Shown piece after piece: positions 3,705 through 62,758 of a stretch of DNA of 64,000 nt. Each line of letters starts with the position of its first letter. The stretch's first letter is position 1. The notes under the pieces were generated by a model. That model was not told where the DNA came from. It made no database searches and saw only the letters and a program-made list of their open reading frames with translations. Source of the DNA: an uncultured Methanosarcinales archaeon (GTDB taxonomy: Archaea > Nanobdellota > Nanobdellia > Woesearchaeales > GW2011-AR9); assembly GCA_964604645.1 (NCBI GenBank), contig CAZRZP010000002.1, forward strand, positions 13,739 through 77,738. The letters run 5' to 3'. A program made the position numbers and the translations under genes.

Positions 3705-6700
3705 ATGGTCAACAAAAAAAGAGGTATCTTTTTTGTAGTTTTAGCGCTAGTGCTAGCTTTTTCTGTGAATGCTCAAACGGGTTGTGATATTGATCCGGCT
3801 TCCAGTACATTTTGTACATCAATTACTATTGATAATCCAATTCCTGGTAAGTTTATTGCAGGTGCTGCTTGTGATACTGTTGATGAGTGTGAAGAAGTCA
3901 GATGCGACCATGCTGATACTGCTGTTCTTCAATGTCAAGTCATGGAACTTGAGAAATGTAAATTTCTTGGAAAGCAAAAAAATGGGATAGAGGGAAAAGC
4001 AGTTACTCAGGAATCATTATGTACGGTGCAAGGCTGTTGTGAAGTTTCTAAGGGTGATAGCTGTACAGTTGTACAAACAACAAAAATTGGGTGCAATTAC
4101 ATTGGAATTTCTGGAGCTAAATTCACGAAGATGGTCGGCGGAAAATGCGGAACATGCAGCGGCGACTTAAAAAAAGTTTCAATTGCCTTTAAAGTTGTAG
4201 ATAAAGATGGAGCAGTTCAAGATGTTTCAGTAACTCCAATTGGTGGAACTGCTGTTAAAACAGATAGTAAGGGTGAAGTTGTTTTCAAAGATTTGTTGGC
4301 AAATGCAGATGCTCCATATGTGTTTAGCGTTTCAAAGTCTGGATATGTAGATCAATCTATTTCTGTAAAAACTGCAGATAAAGATATTGAGAAAGATGTT
4401 AAATTAGTAAAAATTGAAGGGGTTTTAGATTTAACTGTTAAAGTTTTAGATTTACAAAACAAACCAGTGACAGCGACAATATCACTTAAAGGGACTCAAT
4501 CACCTTCCCCAAAGGAAGGTTCTACTGTTAAATTTGATCAACTTCCAGCTGGAAAATATGATATTACTGCTTCAGCTGCCGGATATGAATCGCAGAAAAA
4601 AACTGAAACTTTTCAGAAAGACACAACACCTACAGTTACATTTCAACTAAAACCTACATCAAAAGTTGGAGTTACGGTAAAAACAGTTAGAGATAATCAG
4701 CCACAGCCAGGTGCAGAAATTTTCTTAAACGGTAAGTTTCACACCATATCACAATATCCAAATGGAGATAAATTCATTCCTTTGATAGTTACTAAAGACG
4801 GTCAAAAATTTACCATTTCAGCTAAATATAAAGAATATGCGAGTGATCCTTTAACTTTTACAATTAATAAAGGTCAGCAATTGACTAAAACTTTAATCTT
4901 GAAAAAGACAAAGGGAGAATGTACAATTGACGGAACTAACCCAACTAAAAAAGTTGCTAAATTAGATGGGAAAGCTGCTAAGGGTAAGGAAGAAGTTGAA
5001 TTAACTTGGACTAAACCCTGTCCGGAAGTTGATGGATATAAGCTGATTAAGGAATATAAGAAGGGAGATAAGGATGTAAAAGAGGAATTTACCTTACCTC
5101 TTGCACAAACAAAATTTTCCGATTCTGATGTAGAGTGGGGGGAAACATACAAATATTCAATTAAAGTAATTTATACTGATGGTAAAAAAGATGGAACAAC
5201 TGGAACTAGAATCTCAGAAGAAACATCAGTAGATGTTACTTTAGGTGCGGAAGCTTGTGCTGGTTTGTCTGTTGGTACACAGTTCTGCGATCCGAAAGAA
5301 CCAAATAAAATAAAGATTTGTGGCTCTAAACAAGAAATAATTGCTGGTGCCACATGTCAATCTGGTTTTTACTGCTCACCTTCTGGGAAAGGAGTTGCAT
5401 GTAAATCTGATGCTCAATGTAAAAAAAACAATGGTTTATTTTCATTATTTTCCACTAAAGAGAAATGTTATGGTTCTTTTACGGGAGGAAAACCAGCAAA
5501 TTTCTGTGTATATCAACCAACAAAATCTATTGTAAATTCATGTAAAAGTTGTGCAGATAAAGAAAAACCAATAAAATCATGTTACGATTATACTTCTGAG
5601 GATGCTTGTAAAGTTAACAGTTGTTTAACGGAAAAATGTAATTGGGTGAAACCTGGGCAAGCTGATGACGCGGTAATATCGGATTTTGGAAGTATTTATC
5701 AAGGTTATGATGAAAAATCAATGTTTGCCTTACCAGATTTTGGAAAAGGTTTCTGTGTTCCTGAAAAGAAATATGAAGCAAAAGATAAATGTGGATTATG
5801 TTCAAATGACGAAAAGATTTTTAACAATTTTTTCTGCACTGCGGATATTTGTACTGGATTAGGGTCTTGTTATTCTCAGTATAATTTGAATGAATGTAAA
5901 ACCTGTTCGGATATTCCAACTAGTAAAAACAATTGTGCTCAATATAAGACCAAACAAGAATGTACTGGAGGAAATGATAAATCTGGTGTTTCTAAAAATA
6001 CATTTGAAGTAATAGCTGGCTCTGAAGATAATTGTGCTTGGAACCGGTGTGGTTGGGATACAGATTCATTAAAATGTTTTAAAGATGGAAATGCGAATAA
6101 AAAATCTGATTGTAGTGAATTAAATGACGAAAGCGGAAATTGTAGAATTGACATAACTCCACCGGTAGCAAAATTGTTGACTAAAGATTTATCAATAATT
6201 TCACTTGGTGAACCAAAAGTTCAAATTGAAGTTGATGATACTCATGCAGTTAATAAAAAAACTCCTCAAAACTTACATTCACAAAGAAACAAAATAAAAG
6301 AATTAAAATATTGTTTAACTCCAGCTGTTGGAACAGATACTTGCACTTCTGATAAATATACCACTTTTTCATTTGATAATACTTTCTTATTCAAAGGAAC
6401 TGCTGATATAGATATAGCGAAACATTTTACTAAACCTATTCCAGGAATATTATACAAACTAAAATTCTTTGCTTTAGACAAATACCTTAATCAGGGAGAT
6501 GTGCAGGAATCATTACTCTTTATAGATACAACAATTCCTGATTTTAAAATTAATACGCAAGAAAATGTAATAGGAGATAAGGTTCAATTAACTGCTTACC
6601 TTTCAGATTTATCTGAACCGGCTTCATGTAAATTTTCTATTAAGCCAATAATAGCTCAAGATACACATACGCCGATTGTAGCAGCAAGAAAAGATAATGT

Positions 6701-9700
6701 AAAGCAAGCTAAGTTTACGTTAAGTGGAGTTCATTACGAATTAATTGTTGAATGTGTTGATGATTTTGGTAATAAGCAGGAGAAGAAGAAATCTTTAGTT
6801 TTCAATTTAGATCAAAAAATTCAAATAATTGCTCCTAAAATGAAACAAGTTCTTTCTAAGACTAGTTTACAGTTTGAAGTTAGAACAACTGTAGCTGCCG
6901 ATTGTGTTTTACAGCAAGTTAAACCGACAGCTCAACAAAAGGCAATCTTCAATAAACAAGACGGAACAACTTCTAAACATCACAAGACGGCTTTCATACA
7001 TGGATTTACGCAAGGAGAATATGCAGCTGCTTACAAAGCTGTTTGTACTGAACAATTAAACCCTAATGCCAAAAAGGTAGAAGCACATTTCCACTTCATA
7101 ATTGATTTCCTTTCTCCAAATACTAAAATTACTTTAGAAGAAGGTAGCAGGAAAGTTACTCCTATAAAATACGGTTGGGAAGAAATATTTGTAAATGAAG
7201 CTGAAGTAACTCTTGCATGTGATGCTGGATCTACTGGTTATCAATGTGACAAGATTAAATATTGTTTAGGAAAAGGTTGCAGTAACCCTAAAGACACAAA
7301 GTATCAAGATTACTCATCTACATTCTCAGTTAAGAAATCTACTCCTATTTGTTATTATTCAACTGATAAGGGGGGTAGTAAATTTCCAATAGTTTACTGT
7401 GGAGATATTTTAGTAAATGGTTTTGGAATTACCATGGAAAAACCTGAACCTCAGTTAATTGATGGTGAAGTTTGGGGATTCAGTTCCAAACCTAAGTTTG
7501 ACTGGCAACTAATTACTTTAGTTCCTTCTTTAGAATGCGCGTTTGATTTCAAGAAAGGTTTTGATTTTAAGAAAGTGTCAGCTAAACAAAAATTAACTAA
7601 AGATAAAGGGAAATATTTGTTTAAACAGTTCCCTGGAACCCTGCCGGCTTTTGATAGTAAGGGAAGCGTAAAAGAAGTATTCGTTAAATGTAATAATGCA
7701 GGAGAGATTAGTCCTGAACAGAAATTCTTTTTAGAATTTGATCCAACTCCTCCTAAAATCTTGGAAGCTAAAGCTACTCCAAAATCTCTAATTGAAGGAA
7801 ATTCTGTTCAATTAATGATAAAAACTGATGATCGTAGCATTTGTAAATTTTCAGATACTTCAAATAGCAAGTCAAGTGCAGAATTTCAAGCAATGAAATT
7901 TTCTTTTGCAAAAGATAAAGCCGGTAAGCCAATTTTTGGAAAAGAGCATAAAATTCCATTTGCAATTTCTTTTAAAGGTAAAAAGAAAAATTTCCGTCTT
8001 ACAACTCAATGTCAAAATGGGGCGGGTTTGTTAAGTAAACAGAAAGATATCTTATTTTCGGTTGATTATACGGTTGCAGGTAATATTGAAAAAATTTCAC
8101 ATGAAGGTGGTTATGTTAAAGATAAAAAAACTACTTTGAAAGTAAACACTAACAAAAATGCAAATTGTGAATATACAATTGACGGAAAAACAAAGAAATT
8201 TGATAAAACTGGTGGAACGGAACATAGTACTGTAATTGATTCCAGTAAGGAAGGAAAATATACTATTCCGGTTAAATGTACAATGGGTAAACAAGTTGCG
8301 AATGGTAAAGCTGGGTTTGAAGTTGACAGAACTGCTCCTAAAGTAAATAAAATTGATGATGGATTATACACTTGCGGTGCTGAAAACCTCTCAGTGATGG
8401 TTTATACTCAGGAAAAGAAAATTGCAAATTACGAATATGAAATCTATGATCATGGAGAAACTAAAAAAATTGGTGTGAAAAAGGTTTCAGGAATAGATTA
8501 CCCTAAATTAATTGCAAGTCCAAAATTAGTTCAAACAAAAAAAGTAGGAAAAAATACACCTTTGAAGATTAACATTCGTTCACTTTTCCCTGGCAAGAAT
8601 TTAAGTGATTTCTTTAATCATACATTACATGTTAAAGTCAGAGCTTCTGATGAAGCAGATAATATTGGAAAATATAACAAAAGTGATGGGTTCTTTTTGG
8701 TAAACAGTACTCATCCGGCTTGTGTTAAAGATACCTCTGCCCCTATACTTACAGTAAATCCTGTAGAAATCAAATCTTGTGAAGAGAGAGCAGTTAAAAT
8801 TACTTGTGAAGATGAAGTTGGCTGTAAAGAAATAGCATATGGAATTTCTGTAAAACCTACTTGTAATGCAACTGCACAATATAATGGTAAAAATATTTTA
8901 TTTAATACAACTTCATACTTATGTTATCAAGCAAACGATACTGTTAACAATAAAGCAACTGGAAAAGATTTAATTAAAGTTCCAGATGAAGATGGTGATG
9001 GGATTTTAGATTCTTGTGATAAATGTCCTAAAACGAAAGCTGGGAAGATAGCAGACGGGCAGGGTTGTACTGCTGGCCAGACGGCTTTAAATGAAACAAC
9101 TGGTAAAACTAATTTAACTGCCGCTCAGAAAAAAATTGATTCAGACAGTGACACTTTACCTGATGCTTGGGAGGATTATTATGATTCTTTAAGTTGCGAA
9201 TTAGATTCAAAGAAAGCTGATTCAGATGGCAATGGTATTTTGGACGGAGCTGAAGATTACGATAATGATGGTGCATCAAATTATCAAGAATATCTTAGCG
9301 ATACAGATCCGTGTGTAGAAGATGACGATTTCTTATTTGATGATACAAAGAAATTACCTGGAGCCACTCCTGTTACTGATGATAAAGCAGATAAACCTAC
9401 TACGCCAACTCTTCCTGGAGAAACAAAAAAAGAAACAGATTATCTGCCGTTAATATTATTCATTATTGGTTTATTGATGGTGTTAGGTGGAACTGGTTAT
9501 TTAATTTATTATTATAAATATAAGCAGCCTGAACCAACAACAGCTAAACCTTCTTTTAAGCCAAAAATAGCTGAACCATTACCTGAAAAAATAAGTCCAG
9601 CATTAAGAGGTCGGCGGAAAAAATTAAGGGAAAGAGCAAGAGAATCCATCTTTGGTTTATTCAGTAAAAAATCAGATACAATTCCACATGTCGAATCTGC

Positions 9701-9935
9701 TTTAGACAGCAGAAAAACTCCGCATGGAAAGATTAAAGCAGCTGCAGATTCATACGTTAAACATAAGGGTTTAATCAAGCCAGGATTGAAATCTCATGAA
9801 AAATCTATCTTTGATAAATTAGAATCTCTTTCTAAGAAAAGTAAAAATAAAAGTATCAATTCCGTTATAGATAAAGGTGAAGCGGAAAACTTATTTGCAA
9901 AACTAAAGAAAATAACTGAGAAGAGGAAGAAGTGA
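3705..9935 (+). CDS. Giant (2076 aa) cell-surface protein: signal peptide, Cys-rich modules, PEGA/carboxypeptidase-regulatory-like beta domains, FN3-like domain, thrombospondin type 3-like Ca-binding Asp repeats, C-terminal TM anchor with basic tail
   Basis: N-terminal hydrophobic signal (FFVVLALVLAFSVNA); DxDxDGxxD repeats at nt ~8980-9340; TM helix LPLILFIIGLLMVLGGTGYLIYYY at nt 9443-9514 followed by a K/R-rich tail. Confidence 0.75.
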   Translation: MVNKKRGIFFVVLALVLAFSVNAQTGCDIDPASSTFCTSITIDNPIPGKFIAGAACDTVDECEEVRCDHADTAVLQCQVMELEKCKFLGKQKNGIEGKAVTQESLCTVQGCCEVSKGDSCTVVQTTKIGCNYIGISGAKFTKMVGGKCGTCSGDLKKVSIAFKVVDKDGAVQDVSVTPIGGTAVKTDSKGEVVFKDLLANADAPYVFSVSKSGYVDQSISVKTADKDIEKDVKLVKIEGVLDLTVKVLDLQNKPVTATISLKGTQSPSPKEGSTVKFDQLPAGKYDITASAAGYESQKKTETFQKDTTPTVTFQLKPTSKVGVTVKTVRDNQPQPGAEIFLNGKFHTISQYPNGDKFIPLIVTKDGQKFTISAKYKEYASDPLTFTINKGQQLTKTLILKKTKGECTIDGTNPTKKVAKLDGKAAKGKEEVELTWTKPCPEVDGYKLIKEYKKGDKDVKEEFTLPLAQTKFSDSDVEWGETYKYSIKVIYTDGKKDGTTGTRISEETSVDVTLGAEACAGLSVGTQFCDPKEPNKIKICGSKQEIIAGATCQSGFYCSPSGKGVACKSDAQCKKNNGLFSLFSTKEKCYGSFTGGKPANFCVYQPTKSIVNSCKSCADKEKPIKSCYDYTSEDACKVNSCLTEKCNWVKPGQADDAVISDFGSIYQGYDEKSMFALPDFGKGFCVPEKKYEAKDKCGLCSNDEKIFNNFFCTADICTGLGSCYSQYNLNECKTCSDIPTSKNNCAQYKTKQECTGGNDKSGVSKNTFEVIAGSEDNCAWNRCGWDTDSLKCFKDGNANKKSDCSELNDESGNCRIDITPPVAKLLTKDLSIISLGEPKVQIEVDDTHAVNKKTPQNLHSQRNKIKELKYCLTPAVGTDTCTSDKYTTFSFDNTFLFKGTADIDIAKHFTKPIPGILYKLKFFALDKYLNQGDVQESLLFIDTTIPDFKINTQENVIGDKVQLTAYLSDLSEPASCKFSIKPIIAQDTHTPIVAARKDNVKQAKFTLSGVHYELIVECVDDFGNKQEKKKSLVFNLDQKIQIIAPKMKQVLSKTSLQFEVRTTVAADCVLQQVKPTAQQKAIFNKQDGTTSKHHKTAFIHGFTQGEYAAAYKAVCTEQLNPNAKKVEAHFHFIIDFLSPNTKITLEEGSRKVTPIKYGWEEIFVNEAEVTLACDAGSTGYQCDKIKYCLGKGCSNPKDTKYQDYSSTFSVKKSTPICYYSTDKGGSKFPIVYCGDILVNGFGITMEKPEPQLIDGEVWGFSSKPKFDWQLITLVPSLECAFDFKKGFDFKKVSAKQKLTKDKGKYLFKQFPGTLPAFDSKGSVKEVFVKCNNAGEISPEQKFFLEFDPTPPKILEAKATPKSLIEGNSVQLMIKTDDRSICKFSDTSNSKSSAEFQAMKFSFAKDKAGKPIFGKEHKIPFAISFKGKKKNFRLTTQCQNGAGLLSKQKDILFSVDYTVAGNIEKISHEGGYVKDKKTTLKVNTNKNANCEYTIDGKTKKFDKTGGTEHSTVIDSSKEGKYTIPVKCTMGKQVANGKAGFEVDRTAPKVNKIDDGLYTCGAENLSVMVYTQEKKIANYEYEIYDHGETKKIGVKKVSGIDYPKLIASPKLVQTKKVGKNTPLKINIRSLFPGKNLSDFFNHTLHVKVRASDEADNIGKYNKSDGFFLVNSTHPACVKDTSAPILTVNPVEIKSCEERAVKITCEDEVGCKEIAYGISVKPTCNATAQYNGKNILFNTTSYLCYQANDTVNNKATGKDLIKVPDEDGDGILDSCDKCPKTKAGKIADGQGCTAGQTALNETTGKTNLTAAQKKIDSDSDTLPDAWEDYYDSLSCELDSKKADSDGNGILDGAEDYDNDGASNYQEYLSDTDPCVEDDDFLFDDTKKLPGATPVTDDKADKPTTPTLPGETKKETDYLPLILFIIGLLMVLGGTGYLIYYYKYKQPEPTTAKPSFKPKIAEPLPEKISPALRGRRKKLRERARESIFGLFSKKSDTIPHVESALDSRKTPHGKIKAAADSYVKHKGLIKPGLKSHEKSIFDKLESLSKKSKNKSINSVIDKGEAENLFAKLKKITEKRKK

Positions 9936-54637: not shown

Positions 54638-55078
54638 TTACTCCTCTTTTGATTTCTTTGCCATCTGAACAGCAATTTTGTCTAGAAATGAAGTTCCTTT
54701 TGGGCTAAGAACTCTGCCTTTATGGACTCCTTTAACATCTTGTTTAACAAGTTCTGATTTTTCTAATTGCTGTAGAATTTTTCTGATAATGGAACCTGAA
54801 GCTCTACGAAATCTTTCAGGTTTGTGGCCCCTGTCTTGTTTACTACCGTATTTAGTACGTAATTTTGAAGTTCCAACTGGGCCTAATCTCGCAATGCTTC
54901 TTAAAATTGCTGCCGATCTAAAGAACCACCAGTCTGGATTATCTGGGATACGTTCTTTACCGCTACTGGTTTTGACTAATTGAGCCCATTCTGGAGGTTG
55001 AACCAGCTTTTGCTTCTTCAACTCAGATGCAGCCTGATTGATTAATCCATTTGGGTCAACTCGTAAAATATGTGTCAT
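54638..55078 (-). CDS. rps19e: 30S ribosomal protein S19e
   Basis: DWWFFRSAAILR ... GPVGTSKLRTKYG ... IIRKILQQLE collinear with S19e. Confidence 0.85.
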   Translation of the reverse strand: MTHILRVDPNGLINQAASELKKQKLVQPPEWAQLVKTSSGKERIPDNPDWWFFRSAAILRSIARLGPVGTSKLRTKYGSKQDRGHKPERFRRASGSIIRKILQQLEKSELVKQDVKGVHKGRVLSPKGTSFLDKIAVQMAKKSKEE

Positions 55079-55232: not shown

Positions 55233-56669
55233 GTGTATGAATTGCGTAAAAGACTATTACAGATACTATCAATTGTTCTTTTAGTAGTTCTATTTTCTAG
55301 TTTTGTTCTTGCTGAAGCAAAACCAATTACAGAAGTTGTTAAGACTGCTTTTACTGATTTGTTTAATTTAGCTTCATTGAGTGATGCTGGTTCTGGTGAA
55401 AACAGAATGGTAGGTTTTATTAGAATTGCTATTGGTATTCTGATATTTACTATTTGTATGATTGGGTTAAGATTCATTTCTGATCATGTGCCTAAAAACA
55501 TGGCGATTGCAATCGCTATAGTAATATCAATTATTTCATCTGTATTCATTCCAGGTTCTGTTTTATCTGCAATTGCGGCTGGTTATGCTGTGTTCTTTTC
55601 GTTCATCATATATGGTTCTATGCTCTTTCCGCCAGCGTATTTCTTGTTTGCTTATCCTACAAGTAACAGGGCAATTGCTGGATTAAAATTAGGTATATTG
55701 GCGTTAGTTAGCTGGTTAATTGCTTTAGTTAATGATGCTGCAGTTGGTTTAACTGGTGCTTCTCAAACGGGCGCATTTCCGAATATGGGTGAGTTTGGTC
55801 AATGGGTAGAACAATTGAGCAGTTATGCTTATGTGATTATTTTAGGTTTAGCTGTTTACTTAATTTATCAATTAATTAAAGGTGGAGATGATACTCCAGC
55901 TAGTGCTTGGGGTGCTGGAGCTGCTGGAGCAGGTAGAAGAGCTTGGCGTGCTGTAAGTCCACATCTTAAAGGAACTAGAGCTAATTCAAGACGTGCAAGA
56001 AGAAGTTTAGTTAATCAGTTTGTAACAGAAAGAGATGAATTTAATCGAATTGAAGATTTGAGAGATAGGGTTGGAAGATTGGAAGCCGAGAGAACTACAT
56101 TAATAGGTTTACCTGCAGATGCTCGGAATACGAGGTCTCAATTTAGAAGATTTCAAAATAATGTTGATGAGGCGGCTAATGAATGTGTTCGAATAATTAG
56201 AAGATTCAGAAGCGTTAACAAGAATACTTTCAGACATCAGAGAGAAATTAACCGCCTAATTAGGGAAGCTCGGACAAGCCGAGAAAGTCTGCTTGGCTCA
56301 ACTCGTGGTCCGGCAAGTACGTCTGTTCTTACAAGGTTAAGAACTAATGAGAACCAAATTTTATCTCAACATAGAAATACTTTACAGAGAGCTAGAAGGC
56401 TTTTGAGAGAGCTGCAAGCGATTCAAAGAAATGCAAGATCTGCTGCGAATCAATTAAGAAGATCTGGAGTTCCAAGTTCTCCCTCCTCTGGAAGAGCTCC
56501 AACCTCAGGTAGAAGACCGCTTTCACCCCTTGCAGGAGCTCAAGCAGTTTTGAGAAGAGTTTCTTTTACAAATGCTCGGACTTTAGTTAATCAAATGTTT
56601 GATATACAAGGTGATCGTGGAGTTATGCAATTAATCCAGGGGATCATGACGGATTTAGATAGAGTATAG
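55233..56669 (+). CDS. Polytopic membrane protein with long Arg-rich coiled cytoplasmic tail (hypothetical)
   Basis: Signal/TM plus ~7 TM helices, then a 230-aa tail with >20% Arg; no known motifs. Confidence 0.5.
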   Translation: MYELRKRLLQILSIVLLVVLFSSFVLAEAKPITEVVKTAFTDLFNLASLSDAGSGENRMVGFIRIAIGILIFTICMIGLRFISDHVPKNMAIAIAIVISIISSVFIPGSVLSAIAAGYAVFFSFIIYGSMLFPPAYFLFAYPTSNRAIAGLKLGILALVSWLIALVNDAAVGLTGASQTGAFPNMGEFGQWVEQLSSYAYVIILGLAVYLIYQLIKGGDDTPASAWGAGAAGAGRRAWRAVSPHLKGTRANSRRARRSLVNQFVTERDEFNRIEDLRDRVGRLEAERTTLIGLPADARNTRSQFRRFQNNVDEAANECVRIIRRFRSVNKNTFRHQREINRLIREARTSRESLLGSTRGPASTSVLTRLRTNENQILSQHRNTLQRARRLLRELQAIQRNARSAANQLRRSGVPSSPSSGRAPTSGRRPLSPLAGAQAVLRRVSFTNARTLVNQMFDIQGDRGVMQLIQGIMTDLDRV

Positions 56670-56706
56670 GAAAAACCTTATAAACTTCTTTTTTCTTCTT
56701 AGTTAA

Positions 56707-57243
56707 ATGAAAAAGAGCTTGGTGTTGTTTGTAGTTTTGTTATCTTTGGTAATGCCTGTTGCGACTGCTGATGTTGGAGAGACTGTTGGTAATATCTGGG
56801 AGAAAGTTCTTTCTGTTGCAGGGTTAGAATTTCTGGATTTAAATTCTGATAATGCTTTAATTTCGTTTGCAAGAATATTAATTTGGTTTTTTATCTTTAC
56901 TGTCTTTTTTGCGGTAATAATTGGAATGGGGAGTGGAGATGATGCAACGGCTCCGATGCGATTCTTTACTCGCGGACAAGCAGGAGTAGTTGCAGCGATT
57001 GTAGCAACTATTGCTTCTATTTTCCTTCCTGCAAATATACTTGCTGCTACTGGAGCTGGTTGGGCTACAATTATCGCTTTATTGTTAATAGGTGGACCAG
57101 TTGTTGGCCTAGCTGCTTTATTATGGCAGATTCCTTGGGAAGGAGAAGAGACAAGGGGAACGGTTGCACTTAAATTGGTTCTTTGCTTTTTGTTATTGTG
57201 GCTTTTAGCTGCAATGAAAGTTCATGTGGGGAATGTGTTATAA
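56707..57243 (+). CDS. Membrane protein, N-terminal domain paralogous to the 55233 gene
   Basis: Signal peptide + similar TM arrangement (SDAGSGENRMVGFIRIAIGILIF vs NSDNALISFARILIWFFIF). Confidence 0.45.
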   Translation: MKKSLVLFVVLLSLVMPVATADVGETVGNIWEKVLSVAGLEFLDLNSDNALISFARILIWFFIFTVFFAVIIGMGSGDDATAPMRFFTRGQAGVVAAIVATIASIFLPANILAATGAGWATIIALLLIGGPVVGLAALLWQIPWEGEETRGTVALKLVLCFLLLWLLAAMKVHVGNVL

Positions 57244-57929
57244 TGCCAATTACAGATATTGTGGGAACTACGGTTGTTGAATTCATTGATTATTCTACTG
57301 TTGTTGTAGCAATCATGATCTTATGGTATATTGGGAAATTCTTTATGGTTGGTAGGGAAGAAGAAGCAGATCCAGAAAAGTGGGCGAGAGGTGCTAAAGA
57401 AAAGCGTGCTAGTGTAAAAGCTGCGGTAGATAAACATAAAGAAAAATTGGATATATCTGCTGCTAGCAAAAAGAGAAAGAGACTGTTGGGAGCTGCTCTT
57501 GGGTCTTTACATCGTGCTGTTGATAAAGCGCATAACTTTAAAGATGATGCTCTTAAAAGGAAAGAAGTGGATCAAGTCAGAGATGCTAAAAGCAGAGCAA
57601 GAGAAATTAGAAAATATTTGATGCTGGCTAGGAATGTTTTACATCGAGCACATAGGAGTGCTGGTGGGGATAGAGAATATACCAGAAAATTATATGATTC
57701 AATGGCGGCAATTATTCAACACTTTGATGCGGATGTAAAAAACGGGATTCCTTCTGATGAGATTGAGGATGCTTTATGGAATTCTAAAAAAAGAACTGTT
57801 TTTAAATCAATAGATGATATGATGGGTTACTGTTGGCAAATGTATGATGCAATTGAAAAATATATAGAAACTGCTGAAAAGAAGGATGTTGAGATTTCAA
57901 CTTCAACTAGAGTTCCTGTATCTTCGTGA
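57243..57929 (+). CDS. Single-TM protein with basic coiled-coil cytoplasmic domain (hypothetical)
   Basis: ATG at 57243 overlaps the upstream stop; TM VVVAIMILWYIGKFFMV; K/R-rich helices. Confidence 0.45.
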   Translation: MPITDIVGTTVVEFIDYSTVVVAIMILWYIGKFFMVGREEEADPEKWARGAKEKRASVKAAVDKHKEKLDISAASKKRKRLLGAALGSLHRAVDKAHNFKDDALKRKEVDQVRDAKSRAREIRKYLMLARNVLHRAHRSAGGDREYTRKLYDSMAAIIQHFDADVKNGIPSDEIEDALWNSKKRTVFKSIDDMMGYCWQMYDAIEKYIETAEKKDVEISTSTRVPVSS

Positions 57930-57962: not shown

Positions 57963-60014
57963 TTAAGTTCTTAATTCTCTTTCCCACTGTCGGTCATATA
58001 TTTCTGCATGTGAGCTGTAGCCTTCTTTTCTAATAAATGTTTCAAAAATAACTGCGTCTTGATGTTCTTTTTGTTTAAGCCTATTGTCTTTAAAACCAAC
58101 CAAGTAATCCTTAAGTAGTTTTCTTGCTTGATTGTCATTTGGAAATATTCCTTGCTCCAATCCATTTTCAATTTGTCTAACTGCTGAATAGATCGTTGCA
58201 CAGTCTTCTAAACCCTCTATAATTACTCTTTTTGCTTGTTGGTAAACTTGTGCACTTTTAAATTCATAAGGTATTTTTGCAGGGTTAACACAACTTGCTC
58301 TTTGGCCTATTTTTGTTCTTGGAACTACAACTTGGTTTGTTCCTCGTGTTCTGACGTCTAAATGCGAATTAGATTCTTGAAAACCATTAAAAAGATCTTC
58401 AAAAAAGTAAATTAAAGTTTGGTCTAAAAAAAATGAATCTCCGTGAACAGTTTTCATATTTCGATTACCGGGAAGTCTTGATCTAGTTTGTACTAAATAA
58501 CCCTCCTTATCATTTCTAAAAGGGTCTTCCCATCTTTGGTAATTGTAAATGTATTTTCCTTTTATTTTTTTTGTCCATTCAGGAAATATTGATTGGATAG
58601 TTGTTTGGATACTTCCTTGTAAACCAGAATCTATCATTCTAATTTGGTTAGCCCAATCAAAACCTTCTTGAACTAAATATCTTCGTAATAGTTTTGCATA
58701 ATCTTCGTAACCTTCATCTCCTTGTTTTGGGTGTGGTAATATTCTATCTGACCTACCTTCGTAACCAATCTTATGTCTAAATCCTCTATCTTGAAGAGAT
58801 TTTTCTATTACTTTTCTTGAAAGGTTAATATATCTAATTTGTCTTGGCATTATTCCTTCATATCTTTTTGGGTTAGTTTCTAGTAACTTTAACATAACTT
58901 TATACGCCCCAATTCCATCACGACCTAAACATGCAGCAATCTTTTTTGGATTTCCACGCATACTCTTTAGGATATTGTCTGAATAGTGAAGAAGAACTGG
59001 CCCGTAGATATCTCTAGCAAGGTGGTAGACTCTTTCTAACATTTTTTCAACTACTTGGTTTTTATTTTTTTCACTTAATGAATTGTCAATTATCTGACTA
59101 ACGCGCTGATCTAATGAAGATTTTAATTGTGAAATATTTTCTCTTTGATTCACTCTACCTTCTCTATTGTTCTTTCTTGAAGTTCTAGTTCTAGATCTTT
59201 TAGAGTCGGTTGTGGACCTTTCTGCAAAATCAAAATGTACGGCTCTTAAACCTGCATTCAGTGCCCCTAAATAATCTTCATTTCTATTATCTCCGACGTG
59301 TAAAATACTTCTTCTTGCAGATTCAAGTCCATATCTTTGTTTTAATTCCCATGCAAGTTTTCTAAATCCAGAAGGTGAATCTTTAGATTTTTGAAGTCCA
59401 AAATCAGATGAAGCAATTATTTGATCAAAGAATCTTTCGATTCCCAAATCTGAAAGAGTTGATCTCACGTGTTCAGTTGAAAATGGTGTATTTGAATAAA
59501 CTACTCTGGGTATTTTTCTTTCCCTTAGTCCATGTAGGGTAGTCCTCGTTCCAGGCATTAAGCTAACTGTACGTTTTTCAACCCGATATATGCCTTGTTC
59601 AATTTCTTGTGCAATGTCTCTAATTTTATCTCTTGGAACTCTTATTTTTTGTCTCATAAAAGTTTGACCAACTATTTGAGTTAAACAATCAATTGCTTGA
59701 AAATCGGTTCCCCTTCGCTTATGTGCTAACTTATTTTGATACCATACTTGGTTCCTTACAGTTTGATAGGATTCTGCATCTATATCAAAACCGTTCCTTT
59801 GGAAAACTTCCTGTGCGGCTCTATACATTTCTGCATGTCTTTCAGGGATTGTTGTGCTCCATTGCACTAATGTTTTCATAAAGTCGAAAGAAACAGTTTT
59901 TATTCTTGGTTGGCTATCGACAATTGAGAGTGTATCTTCTAGGCGAGTTATTCTACCATGGTCTCTTGATGTACTTCTTCTTCTGTCCGTTTCTCTTTTA
60001 GTATTTCTTACCAT
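57963..60014 (-). CDS. Large (683 aa) protein with N-terminal HAD-like (probably degenerate) domain and uncharacterised C-terminal domain
   Basis: HAD motif IV HVGDNRNEDYLGALNAGLRAVHF; motif I position reads FDFMKT (second Asp replaced); paralogous to the C-terminus of the next gene. Confidence 0.5.
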   Translation of the reverse strand: MVRNTKRETDRRRSTSRDHGRITRLEDTLSIVDSQPRIKTVSFDFMKTLVQWSTTIPERHAEMYRAAQEVFQRNGFDIDAESYQTVRNQVWYQNKLAHKRRGTDFQAIDCLTQIVGQTFMRQKIRVPRDKIRDIAQEIEQGIYRVEKRTVSLMPGTRTTLHGLRERKIPRVVYSNTPFSTEHVRSTLSDLGIERFFDQIIASSDFGLQKSKDSPSGFRKLAWELKQRYGLESARRSILHVGDNRNEDYLGALNAGLRAVHFDFAERSTTDSKRSRTRTSRKNNREGRVNQRENISQLKSSLDQRVSQIIDNSLSEKNKNQVVEKMLERVYHLARDIYGPVLLHYSDNILKSMRGNPKKIAACLGRDGIGAYKVMLKLLETNPKRYEGIMPRQIRYINLSRKVIEKSLQDRGFRHKIGYEGRSDRILPHPKQGDEGYEDYAKLLRRYLVQEGFDWANQIRMIDSGLQGSIQTTIQSIFPEWTKKIKGKYIYNYQRWEDPFRNDKEGYLVQTRSRLPGNRNMKTVHGDSFFLDQTLIYFFEDLFNGFQESNSHLDVRTRGTNQVVVPRTKIGQRASCVNPAKIPYEFKSAQVYQQAKRVIIEGLEDCATIYSAVRQIENGLEQGIFPNDNQARKLLKDYLVGFKDNRLKQKEHQDAVIFETFIRKEGYSSHAEIYDRQWERELRT

Positions 60015-60090
60015 TTAATCACTCTCTAGTGGTGAATTAAGAAAGGTTTATTTATAAATCTTTCGTTTTTTTTGTTGTTATGAAGAAATC

Positions 60091-61443
60091 TCATCTATTT
60101 TTAATCAAATGGGCTGCCCTTAAACCAGCATTGAGTGCACCTTGATAATCTGTTTTAATATCACTACCTATGTGAAGAATTGCTTCACGAGCTGATTTAA
60201 AGCCAAAAGATTTTTTGAGTTCAAAAGCCATCTTTTGGTAGGCTCCTGGATTATTTTCTTGTTTTTTTACCCCTGTATCTCCATATGTGAATACTTTATC
60301 TAAATATCTATTAATTCCCGCCATTCCTCTTTGTGCTTTAATTTCATCACCTGTCATTGTTGTGTTAGAATATGCTGCAGTGACTATACCTTGTTTTTTC
60401 AAAGTTCTTAAAAGTTGATACCCTTCTTTGCTTATAATTGAACTCAAAGCAAATGTTACTGCTTTTATTTCATTGTTTCCAGCAACTATTGGTAAGATAT
60501 GATGTAGTTTCGTGATTGTGCCATAATCTACTGATGGAGCTTCTAATTCTTCATACACTTGTACTAATGGTGGAACTCTTTTTCTTGCATTTTTTAATTT
60601 GCCATCTATGCTTTTTTTGTGGCATTCTATCATTGCTTGAGCATTATCAAGTGTTCTTTTATTATCTTCTTTTTCTGATTTTAATCTTGATTCTAATACC
60701 TTACATCCTTCTTGAGCTCTATGATAATTCTGTTGTGCTTCTCTAACTTTTTCTCTTTCTCTTCCTAAATTTGCTTCTGATTGTGCATATTTTACTTGTA
60801 ATTCTCTATTTGAATTATTTGCTTGTCCTAACTGAGTTGTTAGCTGAGCAGTTCTTCTTGTTTGATTATTTAATTGTCCACGCAATTCTCTAACTGTTCT
60901 TTCTAAATCTGGACTTGATCCAACTCCTCGCCTTAATTCTGCTATCTTTTGTCGAGCATTAGATAAATTAATTGTATAAGATCCATCTCTAAATAATTCA
61001 ACCTGTTCAGGTCGATAATGTACACGGCCTCTAATTTGGCCAATTAAAGCAGCTTTTGTGTTATCTATTTCTACATGCATCCTTTCAATTTGTGTATCTC
61101 TATTATCAATCTCTTGCATGGCCATGGCCAGAAGTTCGTCATCTCCTCCTCCACTACCAACATAAAGATCAACAAGATGTCCTGCTAAATCGTCATCAGA
61201 AAGTCCATTCTCTAGTTTTTCTTTAGCTTGATTTAAAGAACTCATTAAACGATCATCTCTAGAAAATCTATCCGGGTGGAAAGCTAATGTTAAATCACGA
61301 TAAAATCCCTTTGAAACTTTCTTAACTTTATTTGCATCTACAATCTCACCTGCAGGCGAGATTGCTCCCGCTGTCATTAATCTCTCTTTTAACACTTCTT
61401 TTAATGTTAAATAATCAAAAGGATTGTCGCTTGCGTCTACCAT
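60091..61443 (-). CDS. J-domain (DnaJ-like) - coiled-coil - HAD-like (degenerate) domain protein
   Basis: N-terminal FYRDLTLAFHPDRF (HPD tripeptide, J-domain-like); central Q/R-rich coiled coil; C-terminal AILHIGSDIKTDYQGALNAGLRAAH with motif I Asp replaced (VTFALSS). Confidence 0.5.
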   Translation of the reverse strand: MVDASDNPFDYLTLKEVLKERLMTAGAISPAGEIVDANKVKKVSKGFYRDLTLAFHPDRFSRDDRLMSSLNQAKEKLENGLSDDDLAGHLVDLYVGSGGGDDELLAMAMQEIDNRDTQIERMHVEIDNTKAALIGQIRGRVHYRPEQVELFRDGSYTINLSNARQKIAELRRGVGSSPDLERTVRELRGQLNNQTRRTAQLTTQLGQANNSNRELQVKYAQSEANLGREREKVREAQQNYHRAQEGCKVLESRLKSEKEDNKRTLDNAQAMIECHKKSIDGKLKNARKRVPPLVQVYEELEAPSVDYGTITKLHHILPIVAGNNEIKAVTFALSSIISKEGYQLLRTLKKQGIVTAAYSNTTMTGDEIKAQRGMAGINRYLDKVFTYGDTGVKKQENNPGAYQKMAFELKKSFGFKSAREAILHIGSDIKTDYQGALNAGLRAAHLIKNR

Positions 61444-62369
61444 TACTTATCATATCCTAAAAGTAATCTGCTAACTCCAGCAGCTTTAGTTGGATCTGCA
61501 ATCTTTTCTTTAAATTCTTCAAAAGACTCTGAACTTCTTGCTAACTCTGCCATACCAGCAATTGCTTCTGGAAGAATTTCTTTAGCTTCATTAAAGTCAA
61601 CGTAAGTTGCTCTTTGGGTATGTTTAACAATGCCAAAAGTTCCTTCTTCGAAAGTTCTTTTATCTCTTCCGCAACCGACAAAGTAAGAATGATCTGCTAC
61701 TTCTACCATTCCTAAGAATTCTTGTGGGGATCTTTGAAATGGGCAACCATCATCTCCTCTAATACCTGTTCCGTGAGGTATAGCATCACCGAAGAAAGCT
61801 ACAACGTGTTTTCGATCTGGATTGTCTTTACCACTTTGTGTGATAATATCTGTCATATCAGCTGCAAAACATTCATATGCTTCTGGCATGTCTCCACCAT
61901 ACGTAGCAACTAGGCCACCAATATGTTGTCGTAATTCACTCGAACTGGTTGTAGGATCCATTATTTGACCATAATCTCCTAATAATCTTCCTAACCTAAT
62001 TCCTGCACGAAGATCTCTTGCGTCACAATGGTCGCTTACTCCAATTACTCCAACTGAGAAACCTTTATCTTCATTTAATAAATAATTTCCAATTGATGTA
62101 GAAGCTCTCATTACAGCATTAATATAGGGTCTCATACTTCCTGTTGCGTCCATAGCTAAATATACAGTTACTGGAGCATATTTTCCCTTTTCTTCTCTTT
62201 CTTGAGCTTTCTTCTCAAGATTTTCTTTAAATCCAGAATCTACAGAACCGCCGATTAATTTTCTATCTCCTCTTCCTGAAGTGATTCGTCTTGCAGTTGG
62301 ACCGCCGATTTTACCTGCTGTGCTTCCACCTAATTTTTTTCTTAATTTATCCCTAATATCGTCTGACAT
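61443..62369 (-). CDS. von Willebrand factor A (vWA) domain protein
   Basis: MIDAS motif VYLAMDATGSM; Gly-rich N-terminal tail; 1-nt overlap with the J-domain gene. Confidence 0.55.
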   Translation of the reverse strand: MSDDIRDKLRKKLGGSTAGKIGGPTARRITSGRGDRKLIGGSVDSGFKENLEKKAQEREEKGKYAPVTVYLAMDATGSMRPYINAVMRASTSIGNYLLNEDKGFSVGVIGVSDHCDARDLRAGIRLGRLLGDYGQIMDPTTSSSELRQHIGGLVATYGGDMPEAYECFAADMTDIITQSGKDNPDRKHVVAFFGDAIPHGTGIRGDDGCPFQRSPQEFLGMVEVADHSYFVGCGRDKRTFEEGTFGIVKHTQRATYVDFNEAKEILPEAIAGMAELARSSESFEEFKEKIADPTKAAGVSRLLLGYDK

Positions 62370-62503: not shown

Positions 62504-62758
62504 TTATTCAACAGAAATCTTCTGACCAAGAGCTTGTCCAGGTAATCCTTTCTCAGAAAAAATTGCTCGCACTGCTCCATTTCTCCCATGTAAGGCAGAG
62601 ATCTTTCCAGATATTTTAACTCCAGCAGGGGAAGTCCAAGTGGCTGTTTTTCCCACTGTTTTTTCAGCTTCTTCTGGTGTATCAGCTATCTTTAATATCA
62701 TCTGGTGTGGGTTAACATGATGTCTTCCTTGTCTAAAATGCATGATTGTTGCTTCCAT
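62504..62758 (-). CDS. rpl35ae: 50S ribosomal protein L35Ae
   Basis: WTSPAGVKISGKISALHGRNGAVRAIFSEKGLPGQALGQKISV collinear with archaeal L35Ae. Confidence 0.7.
   Translation of the reverse strand: MEATIMHFRQGRHHVNPHQMILKIADTPEEAEKTVGKTATWTSPAGVKISGKISALHGRNGAVRAIFSEKGLPGQALGQKISVE

What the first reader, a model, noticed from the sequence alone, without database searches (positions are those of the whole stretch)
57963..62369. Unusual trio on the minus strand: two paralogous degenerate HAD-like proteins (one fused to a J-domain) followed by a vWA protein
The 683-aa and 450-aa proteins share a clearly homologous ~130-aa HAD-type segment. Compare SNTPFSTEH...SILHVGDNRNEDYLGALNAGLRAVH with SNTTMTGDE...AILHIGSDIKTDYQGALNAGLRAAH; motifs II-IV are present. 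The motif I nucleophile position reads FDFMKT in one and VTFALSS in the other. So one or both are probably catalytically dead binding modules. The 450-aa protein starts with a J-domain-like segment (FYRDLTLAFHPDRF) and a long Q/R coiled coil. Its start overlaps by 1 nt the stop of a vWA (MIDAS DATGSM) protein. J-domain (Hsp70 recruitment), vWA and pseudo-phosphatase modules together suggest an uncharacterised assembly or regulatory system. Adjacency to the Arg-rich membrane proteins hints at one functional unit.
Basis: partly seen in the sequence, partly recalled or inferred. Interest (0 to 1): 0.6.

Follow-up and report, generated by a model that had tools for sequence, protein, structure and literature searches.

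The report
vWA–J-domain operon beside a ribosyltransferase
In a tiny DPANN archaeon, a conserved gene pair (a metal-site adhesion-type vWA protein plus an Hsp70-recruiting J-domain protein) has swapped the J-protein's usual TPR tail for a dead, cap-less copy of the phosphatase domain of the neighbouring gene. That neighbour is probably not a pseudo-phosphatase but an active two-domain, PRPP-dependent ribose-adding enzyme of a kind known so far from bacterial capsule and O-antigen synthesis.

Summary
The sequence facts hold. The three minus-strand ORFs (308, 450 and 683 aa), the 1-nt TAATG overlap and the HAD paralogy (39% over 102 aa, E=2e-24) are all real. The vWA fold is supported by an AF2 model and Foldseek. 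The J-domain is supported only through orthologues: a 5-sequence profile hits solved J-domains exclusively, best E=1.8e-7.

The interpretation needs revising in three ways.

1. vWA followed by a J-protein is a conserved pair, found in 9 of 9 distinct Woesearchaeota-type loci between L35Ae and S19e, facing a conserved trio of membrane proteins. The 683-aa gene is not part of that core. Other loci carry GT2 or GT4 glycosyltransferases, a kinase or methyltransferases at that position.
2. The 683-aa protein keeps the HAD nucleophile Asp and motifs II–IV. Its HAD-family profile matches the phosphatase domains of both solved ribofuranosyltransferases over the full domain (7SHG E=1.7e-14; Bcs3 E=1.7e-8). 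Its C-terminal domain profile matches the gPRT domain of 7SHG (E=6.7e-6). It is most likely a bipartite PRPP-dependent phosphoribosyl-transferase/phosphatase.
3. Only the 450-aa protein's HAD is dead: Asp→Ala at the nucleophile, and the cap is deleted. A TARA orthologue of the 683-aa enzyme also has an adjacent cap-less pseudo-HAD gene, so enzyme plus pseudo-HAD looks like a module of its own, fused here to the J-protein.

Whether the genome encodes Hsp70 was not tested.

The parts
61443..62369 (-). 308-aa soluble vWA-domain protein, first gene of the operon. It has a disordered basic N-terminus (residues 9-62) and a vWA core at residues ~67-258.
   Evidence: ORF. AF2 model pLDDT 73.6, pTM 0.72. 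Foldseek against the PDB returns vWA-domain proteins in all 50 rows shown. No TM segment. Six homologues at 34-40% identity.
62136..62150 (-). MIDAS-type motif D74-A-T76-G-S78 (DxTxS, a variant of DxSxS). The partner residues T140 and D195 lie elsewhere in the gene.
   Evidence: D74, T76, S78, T140 and D195 are invariant in alignment A2.
61189..61362 (-). J-like domain of the 450-aa protein (residues ~28-85). HPD is at residues 56-58 (nt 61270-61278), and the basic helix II residues K45 and R49 are conserved.
   Evidence: Profile A3 hits 60 of 60 listed PDB J-domains, best E=1.8e-7. The orthologues have Pfam DnaJ hits at E 4e-7 to 1e-3. K45, R49, H56, P57 and D58 are invariant in 5 orthologues. 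The window protein alone has no Pfam DnaJ hit.
60544..61188 (-). Family-specific conserved linker (SDD..L..LV..Y....GDE.LLA.AM.EI) followed by a predicted coiled coil (residues 86-300).
   Evidence: Alignment A1. Weak matches to SMC, tropomyosin and other coiled-coil families. BLASTP to the L007 orthologue gives 28% over 288 aa, E=5e-15.
60094..60543 (-). Cap-less pseudo-HAD (residues 301-450), a paralogue of the phosphatase domain of the next gene. The nucleophile Asp is Ala, the first motif IV Asp is Ser, and the ~115-aa C1 cap is deleted.
   Evidence: PF00702 matches residues 322-440, the core half only.
59229..59903 (-). HAD phosphatase domain of the 683-aa protein (residues 38-262), of the PRP type with a helical C1 cap. 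D44 (nucleophile), S174/N175, K209 and D242/D247 are all present. The D+2 position is Met.
   Evidence: PF00702 E=3.8e-14, full length 1-191/191. Family profile A10 matches 7SHG residues 37-250 at E=1.7e-14 and Bcs3 residues 387-594 (CrpP) at E=1.7e-8, both over the whole domain. Motif conservation.
57966..59063 (-). C-terminal ~365-aa domain of the 683-aa protein (residues ~318-683), a putative PRPP-dependent phosphoribosyltransferase (gPRT-like). Invariant residues are R365-D366 (LGRDG), S399-R400, D462..G467-S468 (DSGLQGS) and E539..G544 (FEDLFNG).
   Evidence: No Pfam family. 101 remote homologues, of which 14 of the 20 scanned are HAD fusions. Profiles A6 and A7 have 7SHG residues 406-581 as their only significant PDB hit, E=2.2e-4 and 6.7e-6. 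The motif order parallels the CriT active site. AF2 failed.
55233..57929 (+). Three convergently oriented membrane-protein genes. The first is 478 aa (signal peptide, ~5 TM segments, and a tail with 19% Arg). The second is 178 aa (~4 TM). The third is 228 or 248 aa (1 TM plus a charged domain). They are conserved syntenic neighbours of the vWA-J pair.
   Evidence: Homologues in L008, L009 and L010 and L013. Hydropathy.
62504..62758 (-). Ribosomal protein L35Ae, the upstream synteny anchor. S19e at 54638-55078 is the other anchor.
   Evidence: Pfam PF01247. The same anchors appear in L007-L012.

Best explanation
Two modules have been joined in this locus.

Module A is shown to be conserved; its function is inferred. 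It is a lineage-specific operon of Woesearchaeota-type DPANN archaea encoding a soluble vWA/MIDAS protein, followed immediately by a J-domain protein. The J-protein architecture is J domain, family-specific linker, coiled coil, then a C-terminal partner-binding module that is normally TPR. The pair faces a conserved trio of membrane proteins and brackets a variable cassette of glycan or small-molecule modifying enzymes. I infer that the J-protein is a scaffold that brings Hsp70 to whatever its C-terminal module holds, and that the vWA MIDAS site supplies a second, metal-dependent protein contact.

Module B rests on homology; the chemistry is inferred. The 683-aa protein is a bipartite enzyme of the bacterial ribofuranosyltransferase type. 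Its C-terminal gPRT-like domain would transfer ribose-5-phosphate from PRPP to an acceptor, and its N-terminal HAD (PRP) domain would then remove the 5-phosphate using Asp44. This enzyme type comes with a cap-less, nucleophile-less pseudo-HAD paralogue encoded next door, in this window and in a TARA contig. I infer that the pseudo-HAD is a non-catalytic partner subunit.

In this genome the pseudo-HAD has replaced the TPR tail of the J-protein. The J-protein, and through it the vWA protein and Hsp70, would therefore be tethered to the ribosyltransferase or its product instead of to the usual TPR client.
For: Module A:
- vWA followed by a J-protein, with intergenic gaps of -14 to +38 nt, in 9 of 9 distinct loci: window, L007, L008, L009, L010, L013, L014, L016, L019.
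- The vWA proteins are only 34-43% identical.
- The vWA fold is supported by the AF2 model and Foldseek.
- The J-domain is supported by the PDB profile search and Pfam hits on orthologues.
- The J-protein C-terminus is TPR in 6 loci.
- The membrane trio is conserved.
- The cassette between them varies: GT2, GT4, an APH kinase, methyltransferases.

Module B:
- Two independent, collinear domain matches to the same solved ribofuranosyltransferase. The HAD profile matches 7SHG residues 37-250 at E=1.7e-14, and also Bcs3 CrpP at E=1.7e-8, both over the full domain including the cap. The C-terminal profile matches 7SHG residues 406-581 at E=6.7e-6 and is the only significant PDB hit.
- The literature places PRP at the N-terminus and gPRT at the C-terminus in these enzymes (PMC11294581).
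- PRP domains keep only the first Asp of DxD (PMC10299916). The same holds here (FDFMKT) and across the family.
- The invariant residues R-D, S-R, D..G-S/T and E occur in the same order as the CriT PRPP-site residues R679-D680, S707-R708, E818..T825 and E874.
- The HAD plus X-domain fusion recurs in 14 of 20 scanned homologues.

Pseudo-HAD:
-.
- The TARA orthologue P0003 is followed 11 nt later by a 311-aa protein with a homologous cap-less degenerate HAD.
- A non-catalytic partner of a ribofuranosyltransferase has a precedent in STM0725-STM0726 (PMC11294581).
Against: - The gPRT match covers only the central ~90-175 residues. A sub-profile of the N-terminal third of the domain does not find 7SHG, and Bcs3 CriT is not hit at all.
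- The AF2 model of the 683-aa protein is unusable (pLDDT 35), so the fold is unconfirmed.
- The window's HAD sequence alone does not reach 7SHG; only the family profile does.
- The X-domain also occurs in a WXG100 plus ADP-ribosyltransferase giant protein, so the acceptor need not be a glycan.
- No Hsp70 gene lies in the window or within 10 kb on the far side. The rest of the 402-kb scaffold was not read.
- One orthologue has H-A-D instead of H-P-D.
- Binding between the pseudo-HAD and the enzyme, and between vWA and the J-protein, is pure inference.
- Conserved adjacency inside a block that is syntenic as a whole (L35Ae to S19e) is weaker evidence of coupling than adjacency in shuffled contexts.
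Confidence: 0.6

Rival explanations
1. The three proteins form one dedicated assembly or regulatory system in which both HAD-like domains are catalytically dead binding modules. The J-domain recruits Hsp70 and the vWA protein mediates assembly.
For: Tight operon arrangement with a 1-nt overlap and a 76-nt gap. HAD paralogy. The J-domain and vWA assignments are supported. The pseudo-HAD fusion physically links the J-protein to the HAD family.
Against: The 683-aa HAD retains all catalytic motifs and belongs to a family of HAD-enzyme fusions related to ribofuranosyltransferases. The 683-aa gene is absent from the eight other vWA-J loci. Its orthologue occurs without vWA or J.
Confidence: 0.12
2. 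The juxtaposition is incidental. The region between the J-protein gene and the membrane-protein genes is a hot spot for insertion of variable enzyme cassettes. The J-pseudo-HAD fusion would then be a by-product of a local duplication or deletion that destroyed the TPR tail, with no new function, possibly a decaying gene.
For: The cassette content differs in nearly every locus. The 450-aa fusion protein has no homologue with this architecture among 5.8 billion clustered proteins. The window also lacks the extra small J, coiled-coil and TPR genes seen in L007, L008 and L014.
Against: The fusion ORF is intact, and identical copies appear on contigs from ENA, JGI and Logan assemblies. The pseudo-HAD retains 39% identity and conserved surface motifs such as GALNAGLRA. 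A separate cap-less pseudo-HAD gene accompanies the orthologous enzyme in an unrelated contig, which argues that the pseudo-HAD is selected.
Confidence: 0.15
3. The 683-aa protein is a phosphoribosyl- or related group-transferase acting on a protein or small molecule, in an effector- or toxin-like or regulatory role. It would not be a glycan ribofuranosyltransferase, and the pseudo-HAD would be its inhibitor or immunity-like partner.
For: The X-domain occurs at residues 1917-2302 of a 2929-aa protein that has a WXG100-like N-terminus and an ADP-ribosyltransferase toxin domain. It also occurs in other proteins of 1700-2200 aa with no Pfam domains. An adjacent small degenerate paralogue fits the pattern of an antidote or regulator. 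The match to 7SHG is partial.
Against: The HAD domain, including its specificity cap, matches both characterised glycan Ribf-transferases over the full length. The gene occupies the slot filled by GT2/GT4 glycosyltransferases in syntenic loci. No PADLOC defence model matches.
Confidence: 0.13

Closest known systems
Bipartite bacterial ribofuranosyltransferases (N-terminal HAD phosphoribose phosphatase PRP plus C-terminal glycan phosphoribosyltransferase gPRT). Examples: Thermobacillus composti PDB 7SHG, K. pneumoniae O4 ORF5, Salmonella STM0726, and the CrpP-CriT part of H. influenzae Bcs3 (Kelly et al. 2022, cited in PMC11231755; PMC10299916; PMC11294581).
   Same: Same domain order. The HAD domain matches PRP and CrpP over its full length. 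The central segment of the C-terminal domain matches 7SHG gPRT. Only the first Asp of motif I is conserved. R-D, S-R and acidic-plus-Gly/Thr loops occur in the same order as the CriT PRPP site. The gene sits where glycosyltransferases sit in related loci.
   Different: Very divergent, with no hit from the window sequence alone. The N-terminal part of the gPRT-like domain is not detectably similar. The helical insert between the S-R and D..G-S loops is shorter. The host is an archaeon of the DPANN group. It is accompanied by a cap-less pseudo-HAD rather than a GT-A partner. The acceptor is unknown and the activity untested.
J-domain proteins with TPR client-binding domains (class C JDPs such as DNAJC3/p58IPK, PDB 2Y4T, and DNAJC7).
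   Same: A J domain with HPD plus a separate protein-binding module. 2Y4T is among the PDB hits of the profile. Six orthologues carry TPR repeats.
   Different: Here the J domain is N-terminal, followed by a family-specific linker and a coiled coil. The gene is always paired with a vWA gene. In the window the TPR is replaced by a pseudo-HAD. The Hsp70 partner is unverified.
vWA co-chaperone pairs (MoxR AAA+ with vWA, e.g. RavA-ViaA, and the MoxR-vWA 'ternary' conflict systems, PMC7159879).
   Same: A soluble vWA/MIDAS protein encoded next to a chaperone-system component and near variable effector-like genes.
   Different: No MoxR or other AAA+ gene is adjacent. The partner is an Hsp70 co-chaperone-type J-protein. 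No PADLOC match. The context is a housekeeping synteny block, not a defence island.
Non-catalytic partners of enzymes. Examples: STM0725, a GT-A-fold protein with no required catalytic role that complexes with the Ribf-transferase STM0726 (PMC11294581), and pseudo-enzyme paralogues in general.
   Same: A degenerate paralogous or accessory domain is encoded beside the active enzyme, and this arrangement is conserved in two lineages.
   Different: Here the partner derives from the enzyme's own phosphatase core without its cap, and in this genome it is fused to a J-domain scaffold. The interaction has not been shown.

Membership tests
J-domain protein (Hsp40/JDP) | Sequence similarity to the J domain (helices II-III) | tested here: met
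   The profile of five positional orthologues including the window protein hits 60 of 60 listed PDB J-domains, best E=1.8e-7. Orthologues have Pfam DnaJ hits at E 4e-7 to 1e-3, three of them above the 27.8-bit cut-off. The window protein alone has no Pfam hit at E<=1.
J-domain protein (Hsp40/JDP) | HPD tripeptide between helices II and III | tested here: met
   H56-P57-D58 in the window. HPD is present in 8 of 9 orthologues; L013/L017 has H-A-D.
J-domain protein (Hsp40/JDP) | An Hsp70 (DnaK) partner encoded in the same genome | not tested
   No Hsp70 among the large ORFs of the window or in the 10 kb beyond its end. Many DPANN genomes are reported to carry DnaK-DnaJ-GrpE (PMC8204110).
vWA domain with MIDAS | Alpha/beta vWA fold | tested here: met
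   AF2 model with core pLDDT mostly 80-96. Foldseek against the PDB gives 197 hits at E<=1e-3, and the 50 rows shown are vWA-domain proteins (Rpn10, TEM8, TRAP, integrin beta, TFIIH p44).
vWA domain with MIDAS | MIDAS residues DxSxS ... T ... D | tested here: met
   D74-x-T76-x-S78, T140 and D195 are invariant in 6 sequences. The first Ser is Thr. Metal binding was not tested.
HAD phosphatase (683-aa protein, N-terminal domain) | Motifs I-IV, including the nucleophile Asp | tested here: met
   D44, S174/N175, K209 and D242/D247 are conserved in the family. PF00702 matches the full profile, E=3.8e-14. The D+2 position is Met, as in the REG-2, dehalogenase and PRP-type HADs.
HAD phosphatase (450-aa protein, C-terminal domain) | Nucleophile Asp in motif I and both acidic residues in motif IV | tested here: not met
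   VTFALSS has Ala at the nucleophile position, and motif IV reads GSD instead of GDN. The C1 cap (residues 49-158 of the paralogue) is absent. The domain is homologous to HAD but is a pseudo-enzyme.
Bipartite ribofuranosyltransferase (PRP + gPRT) | N-terminal HAD domain of the PRP type with an invariant catalytic Asp | tested here: met
   Family profile A10 matches 7SHG residues 37-250 at E=1.7e-14 (rank 3 in the PDB) and Bcs3 residues 387-594 at E=1.7e-8, both over the full domain. D44 is invariant.
Bipartite ribofuranosyltransferase (PRP + gPRT) | C-terminal gPRT domain homologous to the solved one | tested here: inconclusive
   The only significant PDB hit of profiles A6 and A7 is 7SHG residues 406-581, E=2.2e-4 and 6.7e-6. 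The alignment covers only the central segment. The N-terminal sub-profile gives no hit. There is no hit to Bcs3 CriT, and the AF2 model failed.
Bipartite ribofuranosyltransferase (PRP + gPRT) | PRPP-binding residues (the R-D, S-R, and acidic plus phosphate-loop pattern of CriT) | tested here: inconclusive
   The invariant residues R365-D366, S399-R400, D462..G467-S468 and E539 parallel R679-D680, S707-R708, E818..T825 and E874 of CriT in order. This was compared by eye, not by an alignment to Bcs3.
Bipartite ribofuranosyltransferase (PRP + gPRT) | PRPP-dependent transfer of ribose-5-P followed by dephosphorylation | not testable with these tools
   Requires an enzyme assay.
MoxR-vWA chaperone or conflict systems | An adjacent MoxR-type AAA+ ATPase | tested here: not met
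   None in any of the loci. No PADLOC model matches.

The most novel reading that the evidence does not exclude
A DPANN-specific, Hsp70-linked scaffold (a vWA protein plus a J-domain protein, anchored near three conserved membrane proteins) organises surface-glycan or phosphoribosyl modification. In this genome it has captured a PRPP-dependent ribofuranosyltransferase through a pseudo-enzyme domain copied from that enzyme. That would be a chaperone-coupled glycosylation machine and the first archaeal ribofuranosyltransferase.
Probability: 0.2. Interest if true: 0.75.

Novelty: new variant of a known kind. Interest (0 to 1): 0.55.

Why it matters
Three points would interest specialists if they hold.

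1. PRPP-dependent ribofuranosyltransferases were described only in 2022 and only in bacterial capsule and O-antigen pathways. A divergent archaeal branch, plus about 100 remote relatives including toxin-like giant proteins, would widen that enzyme class and its possible acceptors.
2. A cap-less, nucleophile-less copy of the enzyme's own phosphatase core, kept next to the enzyme in two lineages, is a clean example of a pseudo-enzyme partner. Its fusion to a J-domain scaffold suggests how co-chaperone adaptors acquire new clients by domain swapping, here TPR replaced by pseudo-HAD.
3. The invariant vWA-J gene pair beside conserved membrane proteins is an uncharacterised conserved module in Woesearchaeota-type DPANN archaea, whose cell-surface biology underlies their symbiotic lifestyle.

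None of this is proven, and each point is directly testable.

Tried and rejected
- AF2 of the full 683-aa protein with a 2-sequence alignment gave pLDDT 34.6 and is unusable, so no fold search was possible for it.
- Word-index homologue searches returned only the query itself for the 450-aa protein and one real homologue for the 683-aa protein.
tblastn against plasmids found nothing.
- The N-terminal third of the gPRT-like domain, used as a separate profile, did not hit 7SHG.
- The window's HAD domain alone did not list 7SHG or Bcs3; only the family profile did.
- The vWA profile against PDB sequences gave nothing useful; structure comparison was needed.
- PADLOC gave no defence-system match, only coiled-coil noise, so a defence or conflict-system reading was set aside.
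- The second 683-aa ORF at 1189-3240 and the 313-aa ORF beside it are unrelated to the finding.
- The primary paper by Kelly et al. 2022 is not held, so I relied on later open papers from the same and other groups.
- Cluster look-up gave no names or accessions.
- I considered walking the 402-kb scaffold to look for dnaK, but rejected it because each look-up adds only 10 kb.

Full report
**What is there**

The window has 33% G+C and carries archaeal ribosomal-protein, Cbf5 and NAC genes. It belongs to a 402-kb metagenomic scaffold, and its relatives are labelled Candidatus Woesearchaeota.

Three ORFs run head to tail on the minus strand:
- 308 aa at 61443-62369
- 450 aa at 60091-61443
- 683 aa at 57963-60014

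The first stop and the second start overlap by one base, TAATG. A 76-nt A/T-rich spacer with a TATA-like TTTATAAATA and a GGTGA-like element precedes the third gene. None of the three proteins has a hydrophobic segment.

**The vWA protein**

Sequence methods barely see it: Pfam VWA_4 scores E=0.013 and PDB sequence searches return nothing. An AF2 model built on six homologues has a confident core. All 50 Foldseek PDB rows shown are vWA-domain proteins, including Rpn10, TEM8, TRAP, integrin beta I-like and TFIIH p44, at E around 1e-6. D74-x-T76-x-S78, T140 and D195 are invariant, so a MIDAS-type site is probably intact.

**The J-protein**

The 450-aa protein has no Pfam DnaJ hit on its own. In every related locus, however, the gene immediately after the vWA gene is its orthologue. 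BLASTP to the L007 orthologue gives 28% identity over 288 aa, E=5e-15. Those orthologues score on Pfam DnaJ at E 4e-7 to 1e-3.

A profile of five N-termini, including the window's, hits only J-domains in the PDB: 60 of the 60 rows shown, best E=1.8e-7. K45, R49 and H56-P57-D58 are invariant among those five. One further orthologue (L013/L017) reads H-A-D.

After the J domain come a family-specific conserved linker and a predicted coiled coil. The C-terminus is TPR in six loci and unassigned in two. Only in the window is it a HAD-like domain.

**Conservation of the neighbourhood**

Nine distinct loci show the vWA gene followed by the J-protein gene with a gap of -14 to +38 nt: the window, L007, L008, L009, L010, L013, L014, L016 and L019. 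Their vWA proteins are 34-43% identical to the window's.

Most of these loci lie between L35Ae and S19e. They face homologues of the window's three membrane proteins, which are convergently transcribed.

Between the J-protein gene and the membrane genes the content varies:
- a double-GT2 protein of ~700 aa plus a small GT2 (L007, L008, L010, L013)
- a GT4 (L009)
- an APH-type kinase, a methyltransferase and a GT2 (L016)
- a methyltransferase (L019)

In the window that slot holds the 683-aa gene. So vWA plus J, with the membrane trio, is the conserved core, and the 683-aa gene is cassette content.

**The 683-aa protein**

Its N-terminal HAD domain matches Pfam PF00702 end to end (E=3.8e-14). 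It keeps D44, S174/N175, K209 and D242/D247. The second acidic residue of DxD is Met. Across the family the motif reads F-D-[FL]-[MYF]-[DKHAG]-T-L.

Residues ~290-683 have no Pfam or NCBIfam family. An exhaustive HMMER search of 1.84 billion representative proteins with this region found 101 relatives. Of the 20 scanned, 14 have a HAD domain directly upstream, so the HAD-plus-X architecture is the norm.

Profiles of the X-domain have a single significant PDB hit. It is 7SHG, the Thermobacillus composti ribofuranosyltransferase, at residues 406-581, with E=2.2e-4 using 12 sequences and 6.7e-6 using 21.

Independently, a profile of the family's HAD domains ranks 7SHG third in the whole PDB (E=1.7e-14). 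Its alignment spans the entire domain including the cap (7SHG residues 37-250). The same profile hits Bcs3 at residues 387-594 (E=1.7e-8), which is its CrpP phosphatase. In contrast, nearly all the ordinary HADs listed align only over the core half.

The published enzymes have exactly this order. [quoted passage not shown] The gPRT transfers ribose-5-phosphate from PRPP, and the PRP then removes the 5-phosphate (PMC11294581; PMC11127046). CrpP retains only the first Asp of DxD (PMC10299916).

The X-domain's invariant residues are R365-D366, S399-R400, D462..G467-S468 and E539. They follow the same order as the PRPP-site residues described for CriT: R679-D680, S707-R708, E818..T825 and E874. 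I made that comparison by eye.

There are caveats:
- The gPRT match is confined to the central segment.
- An N-terminal sub-profile finds nothing.
- The AF2 model failed.
- One relative of the X-domain is a 2929-aa protein with WXG100-like and ADP-ribosyltransferase toxin domains, so the acceptor class is open.

**The pseudo-HAD**

Residues 301-450 of the J-protein align to the 683-aa protein in two blocks: 302-331 with 14-43, and 345-446 with 160-261. The ~115-residue cap is therefore missing. The nucleophile position is Ala, and the first motif IV Asp is Ser. This domain cannot be a phosphatase.

The only close homologue of the 683-aa protein is P0003 (697 aa, 41% identity) on TARA Oceans contigs. 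It is followed 11 nt later by a 311-aa protein whose C-terminal half is likewise a cap-less, degenerate HAD.

Each pseudo-HAD resembles its own neighbour more than the other genome's pseudo-HAD. The 311-aa protein scores 24.8 bits by phmmer against P0003, compared with 13.8 bits against the window's 450-aa protein. The window's pseudo-HAD scores 93 bits by BLASTP against its own neighbour, the 683-aa protein, compared with 73 bits against P0003. This fits concerted evolution or repeated duplication. In either case the enzyme-plus-pseudo-HAD pairing recurs.

A non-catalytic partner that complexes with a ribofuranosyltransferase has a precedent in STM0725-STM0726.

**Most likely mechanism**

Shown:
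- a conserved vWA-J operon
- a J domain with HPD
- a vWA fold with MIDAS residues
- an intact HAD plus a gPRT-like domain in the 683-aa protein
- a dead, cap-less HAD on the J-protein
- a recurring enzyme-plus-pseudo-HAD pairing

Inferred:
- The J-protein is a coiled-coil scaffold whose C-terminal module selects the partner.
- In this genome that partner is the ribosyltransferase or its phosphorylated product.
- The J domain brings Hsp70, and the vWA MIDAS provides a further protein contact, possibly towards the membrane trio.
- The enzyme ribosylates a surface glycan or another acceptor using PRPP.

Hsp70 was not found in the window or its near flank, and the rest of the genome could not be read. 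Many DPANN genomes are reported to have DnaK-DnaJ-GrpE (PMC8204110).

**Comparison and novelty**

The 683-aa protein is best filed as a divergent new member of the bipartite ribofuranosyltransferase kind, with membership of the gPRT half still inconclusive. The J-protein is a class-C-like JDP. The vWA-J pairing is not the MoxR-vWA arrangement: no AAA+ gene is adjacent and no PADLOC model matches. Searching the held literature for vWA with J-domain neighbourhoods returned only the MoxR/GTPase conflict-system papers.

Overall this is a new variant of known kinds. It is of moderate interest because of the pseudo-enzyme-for-TPR swap, the archaeal ribosyltransferase candidate, and the uncharacterised conserved DPANN module.

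Noticed in passing
P0095 (protein), residues 11-151, 1344-1460 and 1917-2302: A 2929-aa relative combines a WXG100-like domain, an ADP-ribosyltransferase exoenzyme domain and the gPRT-like X-domain. The X-domain therefore also occurs in polymorphic-toxin or effector-like giant proteins. Other proteins of 1700-2200 aa carrying it have no Pfam domains at all.
   Followed up: partly
window 61443-62369 (-), residues H114, H199, C209, C233 and the C-terminal tail: Besides the MIDAS residues, two His and two Cys are invariant in the vWA family, which may mark an extra metal site. The C-terminal tail K-[AV]-A-G-L-L-G is also conserved and could be a docking motif, for example for the TPR partner.
   Followed up: no
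L013 7118-8551 (same as L017 6946-8379): The J-protein orthologue in this Woesearchaeota genome reads H-A-D where all the others read H-P-D, while its TPR tail is intact.
   Followed up: no
L007 7405-9256, L008 8221-9913, L014 2468-4325: These relatives carry an extra set of genes upstream of the vWA gene: a small J-domain protein (185-242 aa, Pfam DnaJ E around 1e-8), a coiled-coil protein and a small TPR protein. The window lacks all three.
   Followed up: partly
L009 721-3849 and L016 1374-4484: The HerA-like DUF87 ATPase that lies upstream of L35Ae in this synteny block is 1036-1042 aa in two relatives, and the L009 copy has intein and LAGLIDADG Pfam hits (L016 was not scanned). It is 505 aa in the window's lineage.
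   Followed up: no
L004 4219-5301: In the TARA contig, the ribosyltransferase-like gene and its pseudo-HAD partner are followed by an inosine-uridine nucleoside hydrolase. This is a possible ribose-salvage link to PRPP supply.
   Followed up: no
window 55233-57243 (+): The 178-aa membrane protein and the N-terminal membrane part of the 478-aa protein are paralogous: each hits the other's orthologues. The 478-aa protein has a 250-aa C-terminal tail with 19% Arg.
   Followed up: partly
window 1189-3240 (+) and 3705-9935 (+): A second 683-aa ORF has no Pfam domain and no similarity to the finding. Next to it is a 2076-aa ORF that was not examined.
   Followed up: partly
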